From positions 1 through 52,419 of IMG/VR virus record IMGVR_UViG_3300017963_000068: a DNA stretch of 52,419 bases; one strand, written 5' to 3'. Shown in pieces: positions 27,983 through 36,896 of the stretch (its first letter is position 1; each line of letters starts with the position of its first letter). The notes under the pieces were generated by a model that did not search any database, was not told the origin of the DNA, and worked only from the letters and a program-made list of their open reading frames with translations. The position numbers and the translations under genes were made by a program. The DNA is from a virus. Its lineage: Duplodnaviria; Caudoviricetes.

Positions 27983-28846
27983 CTAGTCCTCCTCCGGCGC
28001 TCGAGCTTCCCCAGCTCCTCGAGGTTCCCATCCGCGAGCTGGTGGCGCTGTGCCGATGTCAAGGGTGAGCTGATCGGCGCGCGGCGCCGGCGCCCTCGAG
28101 GGAAACAGCTCGGGCTGATAACGCGCCTCCTCGAATCGCTTTCGTGCGATCTCCGCATAGGTCGGATCCACCTCGAATCCCATGGAATGGCGGCCCAGGC
28201 GCTTCGCGGCCACGCTCGTGGTGCCGGAGCCCGCGAACGGATCGAGAATCGATTCCTCGGGATCGGTGAAGTCCCGGACTAAATTCTCGAGGAGGGCGAG
28301 CGGTTTCTGGGTTGTATGCAAGCGGGCGCCGTTGTGGCCGCGGTCCAGAACGATCGGGTGAGTCCAAACGGCGTGCCGCCCTCCACCGTTCCAGTGCAAC
28401 CGGCCCCCGTTTGGCCGCGGAGCGTGAGCGATCACGATCACCTCATGGCCTACGGCGGGACGATCGCCGGAAAATTGCGGCGTGGCGCCCAGCTTGATCC
28501 ACACGCCGAACCGGACGAACTCGGCGCCGGCGGCCTCGAGCGCTTCGCGCCATGCCTGGCCGCCCTCGTGATCGCAGAACACCAGGATCCAGCGCCGGCA
28601 CACGCGCGCCAGCTCGAGCGCCACGCGCGATCGAAGCTCGTCCGTGAGGGGAGCGAAACCTAGATCGCGGACTCGGTGAAACTGGGCTCCGGTGGCGTTC
28701 GGCCTCGAGGGCTCGCGATACCCGGTGCAACCTCGGCGCCCGGCCTCATGGACGTGGGGCGAATACGGCGGATCGGTGATCGCGTGATCAATGCAGCGAT
28801 CGCGGAGCTGGTGGAGGAGCGCCAGGCATTCTCCGCATAGGATCAT
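27983..28846 (-). CDS. Site-specific DNA methyltransferase (N6-adenine/N4-cytosine, beta class)
   Basis: ITDPPY (motif IV) precedes HTTQKP and ILDPFAGSGTT (motif I). Confidence 0.92.
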   Translation of the reverse strand: MILCGECLALLHQLRDRCIDHAITDPPYSPHVHEAGRRGCTGYREPSRPNATGAQFHRVRDLGFAPLTDELRSRVALELARVCRRWILVFCDHEGGQAWREALEAAGAEFVRFGVWIKLGATPQFSGDRPAVGHEVIVIAHAPRPNGGRLHWNGGGRHAVWTHPIVLDRGHNGARLHTTQKPLALLENLVRDFTDPEESILDPFAGSGTTSVAAKRLGRHSMGFEVDPTYAEIARKRFEEARYQPELFPSRAPAPRADQLTLDIGTAPPARGWEPRGAGEARAPEED

Positions 28847-29487: not shown

Positions 29488-30464
29488 ATCTGGCCCTCCT
29501 CGGGTTCGTTCTCCCACGCCTCGCGTGGTGTGGGCTCCGCTTGGCCCACGCGAACGTCCCGCGGCTTGCCATTGTCGCCTCGGCGGGGCCGCCCGCGCTG
29601 GCCCAGCATGGTGTCCCAATTCTTGCGGAGCGCCTCGGCGCTTTGCACGTTCGCCCGCCAGAATTCGCTCCGCTGGGACCACTCGATCATGTCCTGGATC
29701 TCGCCCCACTCGTGGCCGTCGATCACGCGCATCCGGCGGATCACGTCCGCCCACGCCAGGACGCGCGCGGCGCGCTTCGCCGGCGCGAGCCTCGCGAACG
29801 TCCCCCGTGGCACGTTCTCCGCGGTCCAGTCCGCGAGGAGCTGGGCGAGGGTGTGGGCCTGTTCCGGGATCCTGTCCGGATCCGGGCCTCGCTTCCCTTT
29901 GGCCTTGCCCTTGCCGGATCCCGGACGTGCGTCCGGATCCGTAGGATCCGGACTTCTACTCTCCTCTACTCTACTCTCCTCTACTCTAGGCGTTTCACCG
30001 TTACCTGAAACGTGTAACGGTTTCACCGTTTCATGCTTGGGTAAAGTGTTTTCGCTTGCTTCCGTGGTGGCCTCGGCCTTTTTCTTGGCCCTCCAGCGCC
30101 TCACGCGCTCCGTGGAGGACTCCCCGAGGCGCCCCCACTCCTCGCTCCACCCCACGATCAGGACGCCCTCGGGCGTCACCTCGATCAGCTTGGCGAGGGC
30201 CGCGGCCCGGAGCCCCAACCGGATCAGATCGTGAGGCGGTTCGGCGAGGCCCGGGGCGTTGTCCAGGTGGCACAGCGCGGCCAGGTATTCCGGCGCCGCG
30301 TAGCCCGCCGGGATCTCGCCCTCGAGGCGGTTCTGGCGATTCACCAGGAGGAGGAGCTGGAACACGGTTCCAGCCCAGAAGCGATCCCCCGGCGCTTGCC
30401 GGAGGAGTTTCGGAGTCGACCACAGTAGCGCGTCGACCTTCGCCCAATTGCTCGCCGCGGACAT
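29484..30464 (-). CDS. Phage replication initiator (replisome organizer type)
   Basis: N-terminal WAKVD, STERVRRWR, RVEESRVEESR linker and FWRANVQSAEALRKNWD C-terminal domain; coupled to the DnaC-like gene. Confidence 0.8.
   Translation of the reverse strand: MSAASNWAKVDALLWSTPKLLRQAPGDRFWAGTVFQLLLLVNRQNRLEGEIPAGYAAPEYLAALCHLDNAPGLAEPPHDLIRLGLRAAALAKLIEVTPEGVLIVGWSEEWGRLGESSTERVRRWRAKKKAEATTEASENTLPKHETVKPLHVSGNGETPRVEESRVEESRSPDPTDPDARPGSGKGKAKGKRGPDPDRIPEQAHTLAQLLADWTAENVPRGTFARLAPAKRAARVLAWADVIRRMRVIDGHEWGEIQDMIEWSQRSEFWRANVQSAEALRKNWDTMLGQRGRPRRGDNGKPRDVRVGQAEPTPREAWENEPEEGQI
29875..30033. repeat. Putative replication origin (iteron-like repeats inside the initiator gene)
   Basis: TCCGGATCC at 29875 and 29932 (inverted at 29944); CTACTCTCCTCTACT tandem at 29956-29985; GTTTCACCGTT at 29992 and 30020. 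Confidence 0.6.
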
Positions 30465-30482
30465 GTCCCCCTCCTTGGCGAG

Positions 30483-30749
30483 CTAGGCGATCCAGGACTT
30501 CGCCGCTACCTCGCCGCCGGACGCCTCCTCGATTGCAAGCGCGAGTTTGAGGCCCGGCGGAAAATACCCGTTCCGGAGATTGTAGATCGTGGACGGGCTG
30601 ATCCCGAGGGTGGCGGCCAGATCGTGGATCGTGTGGCCGTCCACCTCGAGCCAGCGCGCGAGCCAGTCCGCGAACGCCGAGGAGGGTGGAGGATACTTGC
30701 GAGGCCGCCCGCCGTTGCGGGGGCCGTGGTGTCCACCTTTGCCGCCCAT
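30483..30749 (-). CDS. XRE/Cro-like HTH transcriptional regulator
   Basis: 88 aa from ATG 30749; TIHDLAATLGISPSTIYNLRNG...PGLKLALAIEEASGGEV. Confidence 0.85.
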   Translation of the reverse strand: MGGKGGHHGPRNGGRPRKYPPPSSAFADWLARWLEVDGHTIHDLAATLGISPSTIYNLRNGYFPPGLKLALAIEEASGGEVAAKSWIA

Positions 30750-30763
30750 GGTTTGCCGTGTTA

Positions 30764-31270
30764 CTACAGGTCCGGATCCGGTTGCAAGTTTTCCGGATCG
30801 GAATTCGGCGCCGTCGCTGTGGACAAGTCCACAGGGTCGCGAACCACAACGCAAATCACGTCAAGGCGTTCGCCCTCGGCGCACAGCGCCCGCGTGTAGA
30901 CTCGCGCCGTGAATCCGGCCTGGCGCCAATCCTCGGCCTCGGAGTCCGCGAGCTGGCGCGGCGTGCGGTTCGGCGGTGTTCTCATGTCCGTTCGGAACGT
31001 GAGGAAAGCCCTCAAGTCCCCCTTGCGTTCGGGTGTCATCGATCCATCCAGTGTCAAGAAAGCGGCCAGGGCGTCCTCGAGCGCCACCAGCTCGGCCGCG
31101 GTGAGCTGGTGGCGCTTGTGTTCCAGGCGAACGATTGCCGGCGCCACGCGCGCGGCGATCTCGTTTCGCGCCTCGGCGATCGTGCGCTCCACGGCCGCGG
31201 CATACGTGCGCGGCATGGGGAGGCCCTCCTCGCGGTAGAAGTCCGCGCCATCCGGATCGTCACTCCTCAT
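30764..31270 (-). CDS. Hypothetical protein
   Basis: 168 aa from ATG 31270, overlapping the upstream ORF end. Confidence 0.45.
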   Translation of the reverse strand: MRSDDPDGADFYREEGLPMPRTYAAAVERTIAEARNEIAARVAPAIVRLEHKRHQLTAAELVALEDALAAFLTLDGSMTPERKGDLRAFLTFRTDMRTPPNRTPRQLADSEAEDWRQAGFTARVYTRALCAEGERLDVICVVVRDPVDLSTATAPNSDPENLQPDPDL

Positions 31271-31634
31271 CGGGCGGATCAACCTCCGGCGAACAGTCGC
31301 GGTGAACGAACAGATCGAAACCGTGCTCCTCGCAAAACTCCACGCGGAACAGGCGCGCGCCGATCACCTCGCCGCAAGCGTAGCAAAGCGAGTCCGCGGC
31401 GCGGAGGTAGAGGGGATCGCCGGTGCGATCGTCAACGTGGAACGCCTGGGGGTTGCGCGTCACCGTCGCGGTAGCGGCCTCCTCCTGGCGCCCGGAGGTG
31501 AACAGCGCGCCGAGGGCGCCCTCCAGCGCCTCGAGCTGGCCCTCCGTGAGCTTCGCCAGGTTCGGGAACGTGGGCGCGTTGTGGCGCATGAGGCGGCGCC
31601 GTAGCGCCTTGACGCGAGCTTGCTTATCCGACAC
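31260..31634 (-). CDS. Hypothetical protein with zinc ribbon
   Basis: 124 aa from GTG 31634 (GAGGAGG RBS); CYAC and HRDC motifs. Confidence 0.5.
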   Translation of the reverse strand: MSDKQARVKALRRRLMRHNAPTFPNLAKLTEGQLEALEGALGALFTSGRQEEAATATVTRNPQAFHVDDRTGDPLYLRAADSLCYACGEVIGARLFRVEFCEEHGFDLFVHRDCSPEVDPPDEE

Positions 31635-31636
31635 AG

Positions 31637-31963
31637 CTAATCCTCCTCGATCGGCTCGAACGGTGCCCCCATTGTCCACGCTCGGAGTGACACGTCCCAG
31701 ATGAGCCAATGGGAGGCGAGGTTCGGGCGGGTTTCCGCAACGCTACCGTCGACGGCGCGCGCCGTCACGATCCGCTTGCGGCCCTTGCGGGATCCGTTTC
31801 GCGTCACCTCGAACACGCGCGCGATCGGCTGATCGCCCCTCGGGGTGGCGCCGGTCAATACGGCGTCGATTTGAATGTGGCGCGCTGGGAGCCCGCCTCC
31901 GCGGCGCACGCGGAACACCTGGCCGCGCTTGACGGCGATCCGGATCGCTTCGCGGCGAGCCAT
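31637..31963 (-). CDS. Basic hypothetical protein
   Basis: 108 aa from ATG 31963 (TAATG coupling). Confidence 0.5.
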   Translation of the reverse strand: MARREAIRIAVKRGQVFRVRRGGGLPARHIQIDAVLTGATPRGDQPIARVFEVTRNGSRKGRKRIVTARAVDGSVAETRPNLASHWLIWDVSLRAWTMGAPFEPIEED

Positions 31964-33915
31964 TAGCGCTCCCCCTCGCGACTTTCCGCGTCCTCCCAGT
32001 GAGCGGCTCCGAGGCCCACGGCTTGCTCGAGCTTGCCCAGCTCGTCCGCGAAATGGTGAGCGCAACGCGGCCCGATCGGATAGAAACCGACATCCGCCGG
32101 ATCGTTCTCCGGCCCCTCGTATCCGGCGGGCGCGAACGCGGCGCCGCCGTCGATCACGTGGAGGTAGATCGTATCCGCGCGCTCCTCCACGTTCGTGCCG
32201 CAAAAGCAACATTCCATTCCCTGGCCCTCGAACTTGCGACAACGCGGCCCGCCGGTGGCCTCATGCTGGCCGTTGAACGGAACCAGGCCCAGGCGGCCCT
32301 CCGGCGTGTATTCGCTCGCGAAGTAGATCGCCGCGGCGGCGCATTCCATGGCCTCCTTGCGCGCGCGGTTCTCGTGGCACGTGATCCCGCCGTCGCAGTC
32401 CTCGCCGTTCGGGTGGCACAGCCACTCGTGGCATTCGGTCACGGTATCCAGCGGGGATCCCTTGAGGAGGATTTCCAGGGCCTCCTCCGCGAGCTTGCGG
32501 ATCGCGTCCACGTAGAAACGAACCTGGGATCCGAGGGCGTGGCCAGGCCTGCGCGGCCCGGGCTCCGGTTCCTGGGAGCGAATCCACTCCAGGCCCTCGC
32601 GCATGGTGTCGAAGCTCCGGCCGGAGCTTGAGGCCATGCCGCGCCCTGTGGTGCCGAAAGGTCCCCACCGGCGCTCCCCCCACATGGGATTCGTTTCGGC
32701 GTTTTTTCCGAACAGGTGGCCGTGGTAGTAATAATCGGCGTCCGACACGTCATCCTCCCCGGGCGTTGCTATGCGGAGGGCGCCGTGAACCATGCGGGCC
32801 GTGTCGCCGGCGGCCACGCGCTCGCGGACGCCCTGGAGGAGCCTCGGCGGGACGTGTTCGAGGATCTGAATCACGGAGGCGCCGCGCTTGCGGGTGTCGA
32901 ATCCGTAAGCGTTGATCGCGTTCGCGATGTTCGCGCACACGCGCGGCGTGCGCGGCCCAGGGCGGCGCGTGTCCGCCTGGACGATCACGGGCTCCACCGG
33001 AGGCTCCGGCCGCTTGTGGCCGTTGTCCGCGTTCCGGAGCGCCAGGATCACGCCGGCGGCCTTGCGGGTTTGAGTGTCGCCGGCAAGCTCGCCACGCTCC
33101 ACCATGCCATTGACGATCGTTGCGGCGGCGGTGAGGTGACGGGGGCCGCCGTTCGGCCCGTTGGTTTTCCCCGCCAGGCGCGCGACCACACACGAGTCCA
33201 TTTGAACCATGGTGATAGGGCAAGCGGAGGCGATTCGGGACAGGATCTCCTTGGCTTTGCGCCCTCGAGGTCCTAGGCCCAGCAAGTGAAGCACAACGGG
33301 CTGAACGGTGGCCACGAACTCCTCGGCCTCCTTGGGTGAGGTGGCCGCGGCTTGACACGGAAGCGCCGGGATCGGCGCGAATCCCAGAACGTCGACACAG
33401 CGCTTGAAAAAGCTCGCTTGCTTGAACGCGCCACGTTGAACCGGCATGAGAACGCGCACGCCCATGGCGTCCAGCTCGCGCATGTCCTCGGCGTAGCGCT
33501 CGAGGCGCGCGAGCGTTTCCGCCTGATCGCCGATCTTGTCCGGCGCTACCACGTGGAGCTGATCGCCCAGGGCGCGGCCCAGGCGCTTGTAAAGATCGAT
33601 CACGCGGGGCCAGTCGACCGGCTTGGACTTCCCTTTCAGTTCCGCCTGGAACTCGGGAAACGCGCCGCTGTCCACGAACACCTGAACGTCAGTCCCCACA
33701 AGCTCGAGGATCTCCGCTTCGATGTCCGCGTTGACGTTCGCCGCGGTCACGCCCACGTCATGGCCGATCGCGCCGAACCCGCGGACTTCGCCGCGCTGGC
33801 ATCCGCTCGCGAAGTAGGCGATCGGATCCAGCGGAAGCTCCGGCGCCGGTTGCGCCGGGATCGGGAAGTCCACGCCCTCGAGCAATTCCACCAGCTCGTA
33901 AGCGGGGCGAGTCAT
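31963..33915 (-). CDS. TGT/DpdA-like base-exchange (transglycosylase) protein with long multi-domain C-terminal extension
   Basis: 650 aa from ATG 33915; ordered motifs VFVDSGAF, VAPDKIGD, MPVQRG, HLLGLG and QMDSC match the TGT TIM-barrel catalytic layout. Confidence 0.65.
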   Translation of the reverse strand: MTRPAYELVELLEGVDFPIPAQPAPELPLDPIAYFASGCQRGEVRGFGAIGHDVGVTAANVNADIEAEILELVGTDVQVFVDSGAFPEFQAELKGKSKPVDWPRVIDLYKRLGRALGDQLHVVAPDKIGDQAETLARLERYAEDMRELDAMGVRVLMPVQRGAFKQASFFKRCVDVLGFAPIPALPCQAAATSPKEAEEFVATVQPVVLHLLGLGPRGRKAKEILSRIASACPITMVQMDSCVVARLAGKTNGPNGGPRHLTAAATIVNGMVERGELAGDTQTRKAAGVILALRNADNGHKRPEPPVEPVIVQADTRRPGPRTPRVCANIANAINAYGFDTRKRGASVIQILEHVPPRLLQGVRERVAAGDTARMVHGALRIATPGEDDVSDADYYYHGHLFGKNAETNPMWGERRWGPFGTTGRGMASSSGRSFDTMREGLEWIRSQEPEPGPRRPGHALGSQVRFYVDAIRKLAEEALEILLKGSPLDTVTECHEWLCHPNGEDCDGGITCHENRARKEAMECAAAAIYFASEYTPEGRLGLVPFNGQHEATGGPRCRKFEGQGMECCFCGTNVEERADTIYLHVIDGGAAFAPAGYEGPENDPADVGFYPIGPRCAHHFADELGKLEQAVGLGAAHWEDAESREGER

Positions 33916-34181
33916 CGGCTCACCACCTTGAAACCGAGGGCGTGGAGAACGCGGACGGTGTGGGCGGCGCCGCCGGAGAACTCGCGCGCGCTCAGGCCGC
34001 ACGCCACGCCGAGGATCGCCTTGGACGGGTAGAGGTTCCCGCCGAACGCGAGCTGGTATCGAAGCGAGGGCCGGTAACCGTGGGCGGCCAGGAACCCGTC
34101 CTGGCCCAGTGCATCGCACATGCCGATCGCCCTGATCACGTCCTCGCGGGTTGCTTCGCTGGTTCTTTTCTTGGTTTCCAT
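33912..34181 (-). CDS. Stand-alone ScoMcrA N-terminal head-domain-like protein
   Basis: 89 aa; TREDVIRAI..CDALG.DGFL..HGY...RYQL...GNLYPSKAILGVA...FSGG.AHTVRVLHALGF closely follows the ScoMcrA/HNH-associated N-terminal domain as recalled. Confidence 0.75.
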   Translation of the reverse strand: METKKRTSEATREDVIRAIGMCDALGQDGFLAAHGYRPSLRYQLAFGGNLYPSKAILGVACGLSAREFSGGAAHTVRVLHALGFKVVSR

Positions 34182-34221
34182 TTTTGCCTCCTGTGTCGCG
34201 GTTAGATCCTGTCCGCCTATT

Positions 34222-34250
34222 ATTGTAGGAACACGGTAAACCGGAGGCAA
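34222..34250 (-). promoter_or_regulatory. Sigma70-type promoter
   Basis: TTGCCT (34250-34245), 17-nt spacer, TACAAT (34227-34222), in a locally AT-rich intergenic region. Confidence 0.8.
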
Positions 34251-34274
34251 GCGAAAAAGGCCACGAGCTTGCAC

Positions 34275-34309
34275 AAAAAAACGCCCCCCGCGGTTAGCGA
34301 CGGGGGGCG
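34275..34309 (-). terminator. Rho-independent terminator
   Basis: CGCCCCCCG-loop-CGGGGGGCG followed by T7 on the minus strand, after the recombination genes. Confidence 0.85.
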
Positions 34310-34352
34310 CCATGTGGGCGGCCCGGGTGGGACCAGAAGCCCGGATCCTAGC

Positions 34353-35783
34353 CTAGAACGCCTCGCCCTTGGGTGGCTTTTTGCCGCGTTGCGGCGGGGC
34401 CTCGGGGGCGCGCATCCATTCGGGCTCCTGGAACTCGTCCTCCTCGCCGGGCTCCTCGGCCTCGGCCTCGGCCTCCTCCTCGAACACCTCGCCGGTGTCC
34501 GGATCGTAGTCCTCGCCCTCCACCAGCTCGGCGTCCACGGCGTCCGCCGGATCCAGATCGAACTCGCCCTGGGGCTCCTCGGGCTCCTCCTCGGGCTCCT
34601 GGGCTTGCTGGGCCTCGATTGCGGCCATTCTCCGCTCATCCTCGGGGATTTCCTCCGGTGGTGGCTCCGGCGCCTTGGCGGGCGCCTGGCGGCGCCTGGG
34701 CGCCCCCTTGGCGGCCTGGGGCTTGGGCCGGCGGGCTCGAGCTGGCGGCGCGGCGGACACCTCGGGCTCCGCGGGCGGGGGCTCCTCCTCCGCGGGCTCC
34801 TGGGGCGCCGGAGCGGGCGCTGGACGGGCGCTCCGGATGGCCGCCTTGGCGGCGGCGGCGCCGCGCTTGGGCGCCTCCTGGGAGGGCTTGGGCGCCTCCT
34901 GGTCCCCGGCCTGGCCGGCGGACTTCTCCCCGCGCTGGGCGAGGCGGTGATCGAGGATGTCCGACCATGACGCCTGGCCGTCCCGGATCGTGGCGTACAC
35001 CTGGCGAAGCTCGGCCAGCTCGCCCGGACTCACCTTGCCGAGGTCGTGGCCCAGGTAGCGGGACAGCTCCGCGGGTTGGACGTTGATCGAGGCGAAAGCG
35101 TCCGCCACCTTGCGGCGCTCCGCGTCCGGATCGCGCGCGGCCTGATCTTTCTGCGTTCGGATCACCGCGCCCATGGCCTCCTCCACAAGCCACCCGGGAA
35201 TGATCCGGAGGCCGCATGTTCGGATCGCCTTGCTCACCAGGGCGGCCTCCTTGTTCAGGAGATCGTCATCCGAGGCGGACACGAGATAGACGGTATCGCC
35301 GCGCGAATTCGTGCGCGAGGCGAGGGCGGTTTGATTCTTGCGGAGGTAGCGGCGCTCCACCACCTTCGAGATCGTGATCTGTTTCCGGTGCGTCACGTTT
35401 TTCTCGAAATCGATCACGCTCACCTCCACGATCCGCTTTTCCGCGTCATCGTAGATCGTGATCGCTTGGGTGTCGCAATTGCCGAGGGCCTGGAGGGCGG
35501 CCTCCACGAACCGGATCGATGGCCCCTCCACGCCCTCGCCGATCGGTTTCAAGTAGCGCGCCACCTCGGCGAACGCGGGGCGCTTGCATTCGCGGAGGAC
35601 ATCGGCGCGAACCTGATCCATGTCGCGCGGGCATTTCATGGCGACGATCCAGCGCGCCTCGATCGCGGCTTTTGCCTGGGCGGCGATCGCGAGCGCGGCG
35701 GTTTCGCCCACGCCTTGGGTGAGGGCGCCGGCGAATTGATCCTGGCGAACGGCCAGGGCGGTATTTCCGTTTCCGTTTGTCAT
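34353..35783 (-). CDS. Probable single-strand annealing recombinase partnering YqaJ
   Basis: 476 aa; AIEARWIVAMKCPRD, GPSIRFVEAALQALGN and SKAIRTCGLRIIPG motifs; long acidic disordered tail; directly after the exonuclease. Confidence 0.55.
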   Translation of the reverse strand: MTNGNGNTALAVRQDQFAGALTQGVGETAALAIAAQAKAAIEARWIVAMKCPRDMDQVRADVLRECKRPAFAEVARYLKPIGEGVEGPSIRFVEAALQALGNCDTQAITIYDDAEKRIVEVSVIDFEKNVTHRKQITISKVVERRYLRKNQTALASRTNSRGDTVYLVSASDDDLLNKEAALVSKAIRTCGLRIIPGWLVEEAMGAVIRTQKDQAARDPDAERRKVADAFASINVQPAELSRYLGHDLGKVSPGELAELRQVYATIRDGQASWSDILDHRLAQRGEKSAGQAGDQEAPKPSQEAPKRGAAAAKAAIRSARPAPAPAPQEPAEEEPPPAEPEVSAAPPARARRPKPQAAKGAPRRRQAPAKAPEPPPEEIPEDERRMAAIEAQQAQEPEEEPEEPQGEFDLDPADAVDAELVEGEDYDPDTGEVFEEEAEAEAEEPGEEDEFQEPEWMRAPEAPPQRGKKPPKGEAF

Positions 35784-35798
35784 CGGTTGCTCCTGTGT

Positions 35799-36896
35799 CT
35801 AGCTGTTCCAGTTGCGCGGGACGTTGAACCTACGCGATCCGGGCTTGGGCCGCGTGTGCGTTTTGATCGCGGCGTCCAGGGCCTCCACCAGGCGCTTGCC
35901 GCTATCGGGATCGATCTGTAGCTCATCGGCCAGGATCAGGATGTCCTGGCGGTATGACGCCACCACGTCCGCCCAGGAGGTGGTGGTGGAATCCTTGCTC
36001 CGTTTCCAGGTGATCCGCTGGCGCTTTCCGCCCCCGGTGATCGCCGGAAATTCGAGGCCCGCACGATCGCCGATCGCCTCCTTGACGATCTGAACCAGGC
36101 GGCTTTCCTCGCGCTCGAGTCCGGCGATCTCGGTGCGCGTTGCATGGAGCGCCTGGACGGCCTCGAGGACTTCCCCGGCGGCCTCCACGTAGTCCTCGGA
36201 CGTGTTCCGGGGCCAGCGGTTCGCCTGGTGGTCCGTGTAGCTTTGCGTCCCGTCCGGGGCCACCGGGACGCCACCGATCACGTGCTCGTCCCAGAACGCG
36301 CGGCACGTAGCGATCAGCATTTCCTCCAGCTCGGGATCGCGCGTCACCCGGTAGTCCTGGGGAAGGTTGTCCATGAACGCCGTAAGGTCCCACACCTCGA
36401 AGTCCCCAGCGGTGAACACAGCGGAGGCGATCCACTGGTTCCAGGCGCATTGAACCAGCTCCCAGGGCGGTACCTCATCGGTCCCGGGCTCGCCGTATCG
36501 GTGCGCTTGCCAGGTGGTGTGTGTCTTGATCTCGTGGCCACCGATCGGCGCCACGTTCTCCGGGCCATGGGAGAAAAGCGATCCGTGGGTGATTCGCGTC
36601 CCGCCGGGATACAGGATCCCGTCCGGCGTGGCGGCGGCCCACTCCTCGAGCGGGTGAACCAGCGTTCCGGGAACGGCAATCTTGATTCCGCGCCGCTTCG
36701 CAAAGTCGCGCCGGATCGGATCCTCGAGAATGTTTCCCCACTTCATGCGATCGCTGTCAACGTCCGCGGCCTTGCCCTCTTTCTCGAGCTGAACGTCCAG
36801 CGGTCCTCCCCACGGATACACGCCGCACACCTTCGCGGCGTCCGTGGCGGTGATCTTGGTTCGCCGGAGCGCCAATTGTTCGGGCGTCAATGCCAT
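35799..36896 (-). CDS. YqaJ / lambda-exonuclease family recombination nuclease
   Basis: RRTKITATDAAKVCG, WGNILED, AATPDG, HEIKT and VQCAWN motifs. Confidence 0.9.
   Translation of the reverse strand: MALTPEQLALRRTKITATDAAKVCGVYPWGGPLDVQLEKEGKAADVDSDRMKWGNILEDPIRRDFAKRRGIKIAVPGTLVHPLEEWAAATPDGILYPGGTRITHGSLFSHGPENVAPIGGHEIKTHTTWQAHRYGEPGTDEVPPWELVQCAWNQWIASAVFTAGDFEVWDLTAFMDNLPQDYRVTRDPELEEMLIATCRAFWDEHVIGGVPVAPDGTQSYTDHQANRWPRNTSEDYVEAAGEVLEAVQALHATRTEIAGLEREESRLVQIVKEAIGDRAGLEFPAITGGGKRQRITWKRSKDSTTTSWADVVASYRQDILILADELQIDPDSGKRLVEALDAAIKTHTRPKPGSRRFNVPRNWNS

What the first reader, a model, noticed from the sequence alone, without database searches (positions are those of the whole stretch)
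33912..34309. Insulated early cassette led by a stand-alone ScoMcrA-head-domain protein coupled to the DpdA-like gene
Seen: terminator (34275-34309), the clearest sigma70 promoter noticed in the genome (34222-34250), a GACACAGGAG RBS, then an 89-aa ORF overlapping the DpdA-like start by ATGA. Known (from recall): this sequence pattern is the N-terminal domain of the modification-dependent Type IV nuclease ScoMcrA and related HNH nucleases, normally fused to a nuclease. Inference: a two-gene modify-and-shield module, where the free domain is a decoy or dominant-negative inhibitor of modification-dependent nucleases, or a DNA reader guiding the transglycosylase.
Basis: partly seen in the sequence, partly recalled or inferred. 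Interest (0 to 1): 0.75.

Follow-up and report, generated by a model that had tools for sequence, protein, structure and literature searches.

The report
Split head subunit of TGT-like enzyme
This small phage gene is the detached front domain of a two-piece enzyme that looks like the enzymes that swap bases in DNA; it is most likely a subunit of that enzyme rather than a free decoy against bacterial restriction nucleases, and the enzyme family itself has not been studied.

Summary
An 89-aa ORF (33912-34181, minus strand) follows a strong terminator, the only sense-strand sigma70-like site in the genome and a GACACAGGAG leader. It overlaps the next gene by ATGA. It is a true homologue of the ScoMcrA head domain (PDB 5zmm residues 4-90, E 4.9e-7; model Z 10.6; PF26345 ScoMcrA_N).

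The downstream protein's first 300 residues fold as a TIM barrel. Its best structural matches are DpdA and the tRNA-guanine transglycosylases, but no TGT or DpdA sequence model matches it.

In most relatives head and barrel are one protein of about 390 aa (84 of the 120 best barrel homologues). The window belongs to one nested clade (12 of 12, support 0.94) in which the gene has split. All four split junctions examined keep translational coupling. A controlled complex prediction supports binding (0.72 against 0.02).

So I read the ORF as a subunit of a two-piece TGT-fold enzyme. Nothing supports the decoy reading. The enzyme's chemistry is unknown: the three complete phage genomes examined lack QueC and QueD, and none shows a preQ0 pathway.

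The cassette is not a closed two-gene unit, because a third gene overlaps the barrel gene's stop. This scan noted the fusion before on other genomes.

The parts
34270..34311 (-). Intrinsic terminator ending the upstream RecE-like / phrog_3657 unit: 12-pair stem at 34311-34280, then a T run
   Evidence: 12 pairs, 9 G-C, loop 8. A stem of the same size but different sequence sits at the same place in L001.
34222..34250 (-). Sigma70-like promoter, TTGCCT-17-TACAAT
   Evidence: It is the only coding-strand site with 9 of 12 matches in the whole window. Both hexamers are invariant in L001. Activity was not tested.
34188..34197 (-). GACACAGGAG leader and Shine-Dalgarno, 6 nt before the ATG
   Evidence: It is one of 11 identical copies on this strand and is invariant in L001.
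33912..34181 (-). 89-aa ScoMcrA_N (head-domain) protein, P0001; read here as the small subunit of the split enzyme
   Evidence: PDB 5zmm_A residues 4-90, E 4.9e-7. PF26345.1 is precomputed for it and for all 18 short homologues. PADLOC mREase_IV positions 3-90 of 560, E 5.3e-8. Model pLDDT 92.3. Z 10.6 and rmsd 1.6 A over 69 residues to the ScoMcrA head, next best Z 3.2.
33912..33915 (-). ATGA stop/start overlap at the fission junction (translational coupling)
   Evidence: L001 has the same ATGA, L051 has TGAcATG and L083 has GTGA.
33016..33915 (-). TGT/DpdA-fold TIM-barrel domain, residues 1-300 of the 650-aa P0002; read here as the catalytic subunit
   Evidence: AF2 pLDDT 95.7. The Foldseek top 50 PDB hits are all TGT, E about 1e-7. 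VIA-align: DpdA 7ui4 Z 14.8, ArcTGT 13.7, TGT 13.3, then aldolases at 13.2 or lower. Invariant D82, D126, Q160, H210, G213, G215 and D240 lie at or just after strand ends.
31963..33015 (-). Lineage-specific C-terminal extension of P0002 (residues 301-650) with Cys/His clusters
   Evidence: Most split-clade homologues are 301-318 aa and lack it; P0021 and P0022 carry a shorter one. No Pfam, PHROG or NCBIfam hit. The Atlas gave only weak structural leads.
31637..31963 (-). 108-aa ORF whose ATG overlaps the TAA stop of P0002 (TAATG); third gene of the same transcription unit
   Evidence: sequence. tblastn gives 62% identity over 108 aa in L001 and L050. Function unknown.

Best explanation
The 89-aa protein is the small subunit of a two-piece enzyme. 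Its ancestor was a single phage protein of about 390 aa: an N-terminal ScoMcrA_N head, a linker, and a minimal TGT/DpdA-fold TIM barrel. In the lineage of this phage the gene split in the linker. The two halves stayed adjacent and translationally coupled (ATGA). They are made together from a promoter that follows the terminator of the recombination genes.

Shown: the homology, the fusion in relatives, the single nested fission, and the conserved coupling.

Predicted: the head binds the barrel and caps its narrow (N-terminal) face.

Inferred: the complex acts on DNA, in N-glycosidic (base-exchange or base-removal) chemistry, using three conserved aspartates. It does so without a phage-encoded preQ0 pathway.
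For: Head homology:
- 5zmm E 4.9e-7.
- A profile of the barrel homologues, most of which carry the head, hits 5zmm residues 5-97 at E 1.3e-14.
- Fold Z 10.6.
- The Atlas names PF26345 'ScoMcrA_N'.

Fusion:
- Of the 120 best homologues of P0002[1-300], 84 carry head and barrel in one protein and 36 carry the barrel only.
- Of 10 viral loci, 8 are fused, 1 is split and 1 is cut by the contig end.
- Of 80 metagenome loci found with the head, 25 are fused and 3 are split but adjacent.

Fission:
- In a tree of 138 barrel domains, the 12 split-clade sequences form one clade (support 0.94). It is nested among fused ones (sister fused, 0.96).
- Nine short head proteins share a longest-contig length with nine split-clade barrels.
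- All 4 split junctions examined are coupled: ATGA, ATGA, TGAcATG, GTGA.

Binding:
- Complex prediction gave 0.72 against a best of 3 controls of 0.02.
- That mark was reached by 58 of 80 solved complexes and by 2 of 110 mismatched pairs. The counts hold only roughly, because my own alignments were used.
- The runs agree in at least 79% of contacts, and the partner's pLDDT is at least 87.
- The barrel contacts (29-34, 51-53, 73-78, 117-121, 152-154, 182, 207-208, 233-238) are the N-terminal ends of the strands of the model.
- Head residues at that interface are partner-specific. H74 is His in 61 of 109 fused heads and in 16 of 17 short kin. In heads with other partners it is Thr in 76 of 117 and His in 11 of 117. 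S39 behaves alike.

Barrel: the best structural matches are DpdA, ArcTGT and TGT. The invariant D, D, Q and D residues sit at strand ends.

Context: the gene lies in a recombination and replication module here (RecE-like exonuclease, loader-like ATPase, DNA methylase). In Acidobacteriaceae elements its relatives lie beside an AEP primase, a PLD nuclease, SSB and Rad52.
Against: - Binding is only predicted. The two alignments were not paired. Halves of a split gene tend to pass this test.
- K54 and G71 are invariant in all 243 heads, whatever the partner, and F68, S53 and G70 are nearly so. They lie in or beside the predicted interface. The head therefore has an intrinsic function that docking on the barrel does not explain.
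- In ScoMcrA the head is flexibly attached and of unknown function.
- Stand-alone heads without a barrel gene downstream exist: 19 of 80 loci, 10 of them with at least 1.4 kb of downstream sequence.
- The TGT assignment is fold-level only, with a small margin (Z 14.8 against 13.2 for an aldolase).
- No match to PF01702, PF23859 or PF14350 at E <= 10. hhalign against 5 bacterial TGTs gave probability 0.6%.
- No conserved CxCxxC...H zinc site.
- No QueC or QueD in this genome or in 10 related virus records. No radical SAM or FolE in this genome. One unrelated 505-aa radical SAM protein in 1 of the 10 related records, where FolE was not searched.
Confidence: 0.72

Rival explanations
1. Free decoy or dominant-negative inhibitor. 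The head protein binds host ScoMcrA-type Type IV nucleases, or competes for their DNA sites, and shields modified phage DNA.
For: The domain is otherwise found at the N-terminus of defence nucleases. Among 99 head proteins with other partners, Pfam finds HNH in 16, HNH_2 in 11, NOV_C in 10, AAA_5 in 6, MrcB_N in 5 and EVE in 3. It is a separate small protein here, and stand-alone heads without a barrel gene exist elsewhere.
Against: It derives from a fused enzyme by one fission and keeps translational coupling. It carries the residues typical of barrel-associated heads, not of nuclease heads. It is predicted to bind the barrel. The ScoMcrA head is outside the dimer contacts. Fused relatives cannot act as free decoys.
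Confidence: 0.07
2. Independent DNA-binding factor. After the split the head works on its own, for example as a site or lesion reader or a regulator that recruits the barrel only transiently, or not at all.
For: The head is flexibly tethered in ScoMcrA. Its universally invariant K54, S53, G70 and G71 point to an intrinsic ligand or DNA function. Weak fold echoes of HTH and winged-helix domains appear at Z 2.4-3.0. I count a net charge of about +5 from the sequence.
Against: Z values of 2-3 are within noise. The complex prediction is confident and reproducible, with clean controls. Partner-specific residues sit at the predicted interface.
Confidence: 0.13
3. The barrel is not a DNA base-exchange enzyme. 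It is a TGT-fold enzyme acting on another substrate (a protein, as in Cap10; tRNA; or a small molecule, as proposed for TIM-B), or a TIM barrel with unrelated chemistry. The head is then its adaptor for that substrate.
For: No preQ0 genes. No TGT or DpdA sequence model matches. Aldolases score within 1.6 Z units of DpdA, and Cap10 (9ntn_B) scores Z 11.7. A nearly invariant K189 lies after a strand. A 2026 preprint describes another TGT-related barrel, TIM-B, with a proposed regulatory role (section 33 read).
Against: The head's other partners are mostly DNA-targeting nucleases and modified-base readers. The gene sits in DNA replication and recombination modules. All top 50 Foldseek PDB hits are TGT, and DpdA ranks first in both VIA-align runs.
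Confidence: 0.25
4. Assembly or sequencing artefact. A frameshift error splits what is really one fused gene.
For: The halves meet in different frames with a 4-nt overlap.
Against: The same split recurs in 12 barrel sequences down to 54% identity, and their N-termini align. Matching head proteins of about 82-94 aa come from separate contigs. L001 has the same ATGA in diverged sequence.
Confidence: 0.02

Closest known systems
ScoMcrA head domain (Pfam PF26345 ScoMcrA_N; PDB 5ZMM residues about 1-95)
   Same: Sequence (32-33% identity in the fold alignments; E 4.9e-7) and fold (Z 10.6, rmsd 1.6 A over 69 residues). The motifs Y-x-S-K-A-I and F-S-G-G are shared.
   Different: It is a free 89-aa protein, not the N-terminus of an SBD-SRA-HNH nuclease. 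It carries residues typical of barrel-associated heads (H74, S39). Its partner is a TIM barrel. The head's function in ScoMcrA is unknown.
DpdA, the DNA preQ0 insertase (S. Montevideo, PDB 7UI4), and phage DpdA1-4
   Same: TIM barrel. It is the best structural match (Z 14.8, rmsd 3.3-3.4 A over 193-195 residues). Aspartates and a Gln (His in DpdA) sit after successive strands, including a D-S-G-x-F motif with the same D to F spacing as D95 to F99 of DpdA (passages of PMC10164549 read).
   Different: No match to PF23859, PF01702 or any other Pfam model. No CXCX2CX22H zinc site. Only about 60 residues follow the last Asp, where DpdA has the 128-residue Ins8. No DpdB-like partner was looked for. 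It has a head-domain partner instead.
Phages that encode DpdA but no preQ0 genes (third group of Hutinet et al. 2019, PMC6884629)
   Same: An orphan TGT-fold gene in a phage without FolE, QueC, QueD or QueE. The paper counts 76 of 182 viruses of this kind and calls their modification status hard to predict (passages read).
   Different: Those proteins are recognisable DpdA homologues. This family gave no tblastn match in 50,697 GenBank phage records, while a control protein found 202 records.
Other TGT-fold offshoots: Cap10 of type IV CBASS (PDB 9ntn) and the TIM-B domain (bioRxiv 10.64898/2026.10.19.760177)
   Same: Divergent TGT-related barrels recruited to phage-host conflict (section 33 read). 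Cap10 scores Z 11.7.
   Different: They are host defence components with other partners. PF14350 Beta_protein does not match this genome. I could not test identity with TIM-B because no sequences were at hand.

Membership tests
ScoMcrA_N (PF26345) | Significant sequence similarity to the N-terminal ~90 residues of ScoMcrA | tested here: met
   phmmer against PDB: 5zmm_A residues 4-90, E 4.9e-7. Profile E 1.3e-14. PADLOC mREase_IV positions 3-90, E 5.3e-8.
ScoMcrA_N (PF26345) | Match to the Pfam model itself | tested here: met
   PF26345.1 is the precomputed domain for P0001 and all 18 short homologues. The Atlas names it ScoMcrA_N. The local Pfam copy lacks the model, so I could not rerun the scan myself.
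ScoMcrA_N (PF26345) | Same fold as the crystal-structure head | tested here: met
   Model pLDDT 92.3. 5zmm_A Z 10.6, rmsd 1.6 A over 69 residues; the next chain scores Z 3.2 among 48,161.
Type IV modification-dependent nuclease (ScoMcrA type) | Nuclease (HNH) and modification-reader (SBD, SRA) domains in the same protein | tested here: not met
   The ORF ends after 89 aa. Neither P0001 nor P0002 has an HNH, SRA or SBD hit.
TGT / DpdA superfamily | (beta/alpha)8 barrel most similar to TGT or DpdA | tested here: met
   The Foldseek top 50 are all TGT, E about 1e-7. VIA-align ranks 7ui4, 1iq8 and 3unt first at Z 14.8, 13.7 and 13.3, but aldolases follow at 13.2.
TGT / DpdA superfamily | Match to the family sequence models (PF01702 TGT, PF23859 DpdA) | tested here: not met
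   No Pfam family for P0002 at E <= 10. No match in the genome at E <= 10. hhalign against 5 bacterial TGTs: probability 0.6%.
TGT / DpdA superfamily | Three invariant active-site aspartates: general acid/base, base-recognising, nucleophile (D95, D130, D256 in DpdA) | tested here: inconclusive
   D82, D126 and D240 are invariant in 118 sequences and follow strands 79-82, 120-123 and 236-241. Equivalence to the DpdA residues rests on order and position only. No residue-level superposition was available.
TGT / DpdA superfamily | Structural zinc site CXCX2CX22H pinning the Ins8 insertion | tested here: not met
   No invariant or nearly invariant Cys in the 300-residue core. Only about 60 residues follow D240. 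The feature is as described in PMC10164549. The Cys/His clusters of residues 301-650 are lineage-specific.
Phage 7-deazaguanine DNA modification system | Co-occurrence with preQ0 synthesis genes (FolE, QueD, QueE, QueC) | tested here: not met
   None of the 4 families is in this complete genome. QueC and QueD are in 0 of 10 related virus records. A radical SAM protein is in 1 of 10, is 505 aa long and lies far from the locus. FolE was not searched in the related records. The feature is not strictly defining: 76 of 182 phages have DpdA alone.
Phage 7-deazaguanine DNA modification system | Guanine-exchange activity, or a modified base in virion DNA | not testable with these tools
   This needs LC-MS/MS of DNA or an exchange assay.

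The most novel reading that the evidence does not exclude
The head-plus-barrel pair is a new kind of phage DNA base-exchange or base-removal enzyme that works without the preQ0 pathway. It would install or remove a base other than the known 7-deazaguanines, or scavenge a host metabolite. ScoMcrA_N would be a general plug-in module, with its invariant Lys and Gly-Gly site, that docks on effector domains and gives them their nucleic-acid target. That would also give the first function to the head domain of Type IV restriction enzymes.
Probability: 0.25. Interest if true: 0.8.

Novelty: new variant of a known kind. Interest (0 to 1): 0.5.

Why it matters
The head domain of ScoMcrA-type restriction enzymes has had no known function since its structure was solved in 2018. 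Here the head profile finds 2915 cluster representatives at E <= 0.001. The same domain is a fixed partner, fused or split, of a TGT-fold barrel in many uncultured phages.

A natural gene fission that keeps coupling, together with a confident predicted interface, gives a directly testable hypothesis: the head is a docking subunit.

The barrel family is outside all current TGT and DpdA sequence models. It has no match in 50,697 GenBank phage records. It occurs in complete phage genomes without QueC or QueD. It may therefore mark a DNA modification or repair-evasion chemistry that has not been described.

I found no paper naming ScoMcrA_N or PF26345. None of the DpdA papers I read in part describes a head-fused DpdA. 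Supplementary tables of those papers were not open to me and could list such proteins.

Tried and rejected
- Local Pfam, PHROGs and NCBIfam gave nothing for P0001 or P0002. For P0001 the reason is that the local Pfam copy lacks PF26345.
- The PDB sequence search with P0002 gave only a chance hit, E 1.8.
- blastn and tblastn against GenBank phages gave no match. This was so for the 5-kb region, for P0001, for P0002[1-300] even at E <= 10, and for the fused homologue P0073. A control with the RecE-like protein found 202 records, so the negatives are real at tblastn sensitivity.
- An earlier scan note points to SEA-PHAGES 'DpdA-like tRNA-guanine transglycosylase' proteins as the closest relatives of the fusion. 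I could not confirm this by sequence. By fold, actinophage 'queuine tRNA-ribosyltransferase' models match only weakly (E 1e-5 to 1e-3, TM about 0.5).
- hhalign of the barrel alignment against 5 bacterial TGTs gave probability 0.6%.
- I fetched part of the Mycobacterium phage Orion record to obtain a named orphan DpdA. The stretch fetched shows no such annotation, and I dropped that line.
- I suspected from their sizes that the conserved genes next to the Acidobacteriaceae homologues were queCDEF. Pfam showed an AEP primase, a PLD nuclease, SSB and Rad52 instead.
- Rfam found nothing in 30000-36000 at E <= 1.
- The Atlas search of P0002 residues 301-650 gave no usable feature hit and only weak structural rows.
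- The head model has no convincing fold relative apart from ScoMcrA. HTH and winged-helix rows at Z 2.4-3.0 are noise-level.
- I did not try RNA or read evidence for the promoter; the look-up of sequencing runs and read laying were not used.
- The viral and metagenome locus sets overlap. Contig lengths show L003=L058, L004=L059, L008=L065 and L009=L090, and L006-L008 are near-identical. Counts are therefore not independent.
- In the tree I dropped proteins whose barrel envelope was under 200 residues.
Full report
WHAT IS THERE

On the minus strand an 89-aa ORF runs from the ATG at 34181 to the TGA at 33914-33912. The next ORF (P0002, 650 aa, 31963-33915) starts at the ATG at 33915-33913, so the two overlap as ATGA.

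Upstream lie three elements:
- GACACAGGAG at 34197-34188;
- a sigma70-like site, TTGCCT-17-TACAAT, at 34250-34222;
- a 12-pair, 9 G-C stem at 34311-34280 followed by a T run.

One promoter-like site in 12 kb is what shuffled sequence gives (mean 0.9). My scan of all 52,419 bases found only three sites with 9 of 12 matches, and only this one is on the coding strand.

In L001, a complete phage genome whose head protein is 78% identical, both hexamers and the RBS are invariant while their surroundings diverge. The terminator is kept as a 12-pair stem of different sequence. The GACACAGGAG leader occurs 11 times on this strand, so it is a general feature of the genome.

The window is a complete virus record with direct terminal repeats. 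Its G+C content is 66%.

THE CASSETTE IS OPEN DOWNSTREAM

No terminator follows P0002. A 108-aa ORF (31637-31963) begins with an ATG that overlaps the TAA stop of P0002 (TAATG). It is 62% identical over 108 residues to an ORF in L001 and L050.

Upstream of the terminator are a phrog_3657 protein and a YqaJ/RecE-like exonuclease. Downstream are an IstB-like ATPase (weak match, below the curated cut-off) and an N6/N4 DNA methylase. The genes thus lie in the replication and recombination module. Expression timing was not tested.

THE SMALL PROTEIN

- P0001 matches ScoMcrA (5zmm_A residues 4-90) at E 4.9e-7.
- It matches the first 90 positions of PADLOC's Type IV enzyme model at E 5.3e-8.
- It and its 18 short homologues (82-156 aa) carry the precomputed label PF26345.1, which the Atlas names ScoMcrA_N. 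The local Pfam copy lacks that model, which explains the empty scans.
- An AF2 model (pLDDT 92.3) aligns to the ScoMcrA head at Z 10.6, rmsd 1.6 A over 69 residues. Nothing else among 48,161 chains exceeds Z 3.2.

The paper that solved ScoMcrA calls the head small, of unknown function and flexibly attached. It states that the other three domains make the dimer contacts (PMC6224610, passages read). A second paper adds no function (PMC7461809, passages read).

THE LARGE PROTEIN

P0002 has no hit in Pfam, PHROGs, NCBIfam, PADLOC or PDB sequences. Only its first 300 residues or so are conserved.

Modelled with 118 homologues, those residues give a (beta/alpha)8 barrel with pLDDT 95.7.
- Foldseek's top 50 PDB hits are all tRNA-guanine transglycosylase, E about 1e-7, TM about 0.5.
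- VIA-align puts DpdA (7ui4) first at Z 14.8 in two runs: a re-ranking and a Foldseek-independent scan of 48,161 chains. In that scan ArcTGT (13.7) and TGT (13.3) follow, then unrelated aldolases from 13.2 down.

The margin is small. No sequence model supports the link:
- PF01702, PF23859 (DpdA) and PF14350 (Beta_protein) find nothing in the genome at E <= 10.
- hhalign against five bacterial TGTs gives probability 0.6%.
- Five bacterial genomes that carry a barrel homologue show only their ordinary TGT with PF01702.

The invariant residues D82 (in D-S-G-A-F), D126, Q160, H210, G213, G215 and D240 each sit at or just after a strand end. This is the order and placement of the general acid/base Asp, the base-binding Asp, the His or Gln, and the nucleophile Asp described for DpdA and TGT (PMC10164549, passages read). 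I could not make a residue-level superposition.

The conserved CXCX2CX22H zinc site and the large Ins8 of DpdA are absent from the conserved core.

This genome has no QueC, QueD, radical SAM or FolE. QueC and QueD are absent from all 10 related virus records, two of them complete. One record has a 505-aa radical SAM protein away from the locus. FolE was not searched in those records.

Orphan DpdA genes are common and unexplained: 76 of 182 viruses in PMC6884629 (passages read).

THE DECISIVE CONTEXT: A SPLIT GENE

Of the 120 best homologues of P0002[1-300], 84 contain both head and barrel in one protein of about 380-450 aa, and 36 contain the barrel only.

Of 10 viral loci found with the head profile, 8 are fused (405-466 aa by my longest-start ORF calls), one (L001) is split as here, and one is cut by the contig end.

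Of 80 metagenome loci:
- 25 are fused;
- 3 are split and adjacent;
- 27 have the head joined to something else;
- 19 have a stand-alone head with no barrel gene in the sequence held;
- 6 are cut by the contig end.

The two locus sets partly overlap.

A FastTree tree of 138 barrel domains places P0002 and its 11 closest relatives (54-76% identity, all without a head) in one clade. Its support is 0.94. It is nested within fused sequences, with a fused sister at 0.96 (midpoint root).

Nine of those 11 relatives share a longest-contig length with a short head protein.

The four split junctions I could read are all coupled: ATGA (window), ATGA (L001), TGAcATG (L051) and GTGA (L083, a distant and perhaps independent split).

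DO THE HALVES BIND?

Complex prediction with the two alignments gave a median score of 0.72 against a best control of 0.02.
- That mark was reached by 58 of 80 solved complexes and by 2 of 110 mismatched pairs. The counts hold only roughly, because my own alignments were used.
- The runs share at least 79% of their contacts, and the partner's pLDDT is at least 87.
- Halves of split genes tend to pass this test. I know of no solved complex of this kind, and ScoMcrA has no barrel.

The barrel residues in contact are the N-terminal ends of its strands. The head is therefore placed on the narrow face. TGTs carry an N-terminal beta-sheet lid on that face and DpdA has none.

Head positions in the interface differ by partner. 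H74 is His in 61 of 109 fused heads and in 16 of 17 short kin. In heads with other partners it is Thr in 76 of 117 and His in 11 of 117. S39 and T75 behave alike.

K54 and G71 are invariant in all 243 heads, and S53, F68 and G70 nearly so. This points to an intrinsic function that docking does not explain.

THE WIDER HEAD FAMILY

The head profile finds 2915 cluster representatives at E <= 0.001. Among the best 150:
- 34 also have the barrel;
- 17 are short and stand alone;
- 99 have other partners.

Among those 99, Pfam finds HNH (16), HNH_2 (11), NOV_C (10), AAA_5 (6), MrcB_N (5), EVE (3), and SRA, PUA-like and Shedu nuclease domains (1 each). About 20 have two heads in tandem. The head is thus a mobile module of DNA-directed conflict proteins.

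READING

The simplest account is that P0001 is the small subunit of a two-piece TGT-fold enzyme acting on DNA (confidence 0.72 for the subunit claim).

The decoy idea has no support (0.07). A looser, independent DNA-reader role cannot be excluded (0.13).

What the enzyme does is open. I put about 0.5 on DNA base exchange or removal, and 0.25 on another substrate or chemistry.

Earlier notes of this scan describe the same fusion on other genomes and likewise found it undescribed. My searches found no paper naming ScoMcrA_N or PF26345. I also found no head-fused DpdA in the DpdA papers I read in part. Supplements were closed.

Noticed in passing
window 31637-31963 (-): An unlisted 108-aa ORF whose ATG overlaps the TAA stop of the TGT-like gene (TAATG). 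It is 62% identical in L001 and L050, where it lies about 1.2 kb further from the barrel gene. Function unknown.
   Followed up: partly
window 5383, 10465, 12561, 20709, 20738, 22728, 24030, 24729, 34197, 35799, 43933 (- strand, first base): Eleven exact copies of GACACAGGAG, all on the coding strand and none on the other strand: a genome-wide translation leader longer than a Shine-Dalgarno.
   Followed up: partly
whole window: GATC occurs 856 times, against 162 expected from base composition and 623 from a trinucleotide Markov model. TCGA occurs 443 times, against 162 and 286. CTAG (33) and GTAC (32) are strongly avoided. The phage encodes an N6/N4 DNA methylase at 27983-28846.
   Followed up: partly
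window 31963-33015 (-), P0002 residues 301-650: A 350-residue C-terminal extension with Cys/His clusters, unique to this phage; P0021 and P0022 have a shorter version. No family hit. The Atlas's own model shows small viral hypothetical proteins resembling residues 539-635 (TM 0.54-0.60 by the row).
   Followed up: partly
proteins P0001-P0280 (head alignment of 243 sequences): K54 and G71 of the head are invariant in all 243 heads whatever the partner, and S53, F68 and G70 nearly so. This looks like a ligand- or phosphate-binding site that nobody has assigned.
   Followed up: partly
L016, L019, L023, L025, L033, L036, L037 (Acidobacteriaceae genomes): Head-less homologues of the barrel (about 365-375 aa, with a C-terminal extension). 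Pfam on L016 shows the genes downstream are an AEP primase, a PLD-like nuclease, SSB and a Rad52-like annealase: a replication and recombination block of a mobile element. blastp shows the same block conserved in the other six loci.
   Followed up: partly
L012 370-4965; protein P0174; BFVD A0A6J5LU57: The barrel also occurs inside giant proteins. Examples are a 1531-aa ORF in L012 (barrel at residues 1142-1416), a 3378-aa protein with the head at 2024-2103 that also carries the barrel, and an 877-aa 'ART-PolyVal-like' phage protein (29% identity, TMq 0.72).
   Followed up: no
L082, L084, L095, L096, L097, L099, L102, L104, L120, L128: Stand-alone head-domain genes with at least 1.4 kb of downstream sequence and no barrel gene. 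The head also exists as a free protein in other, unexamined contexts.
   Followed up: no
L083 about 3346: A distant relative (44% identity) is also split, with a GTGA overlap and almost no linker; possibly an independent fission.
   Followed up: no
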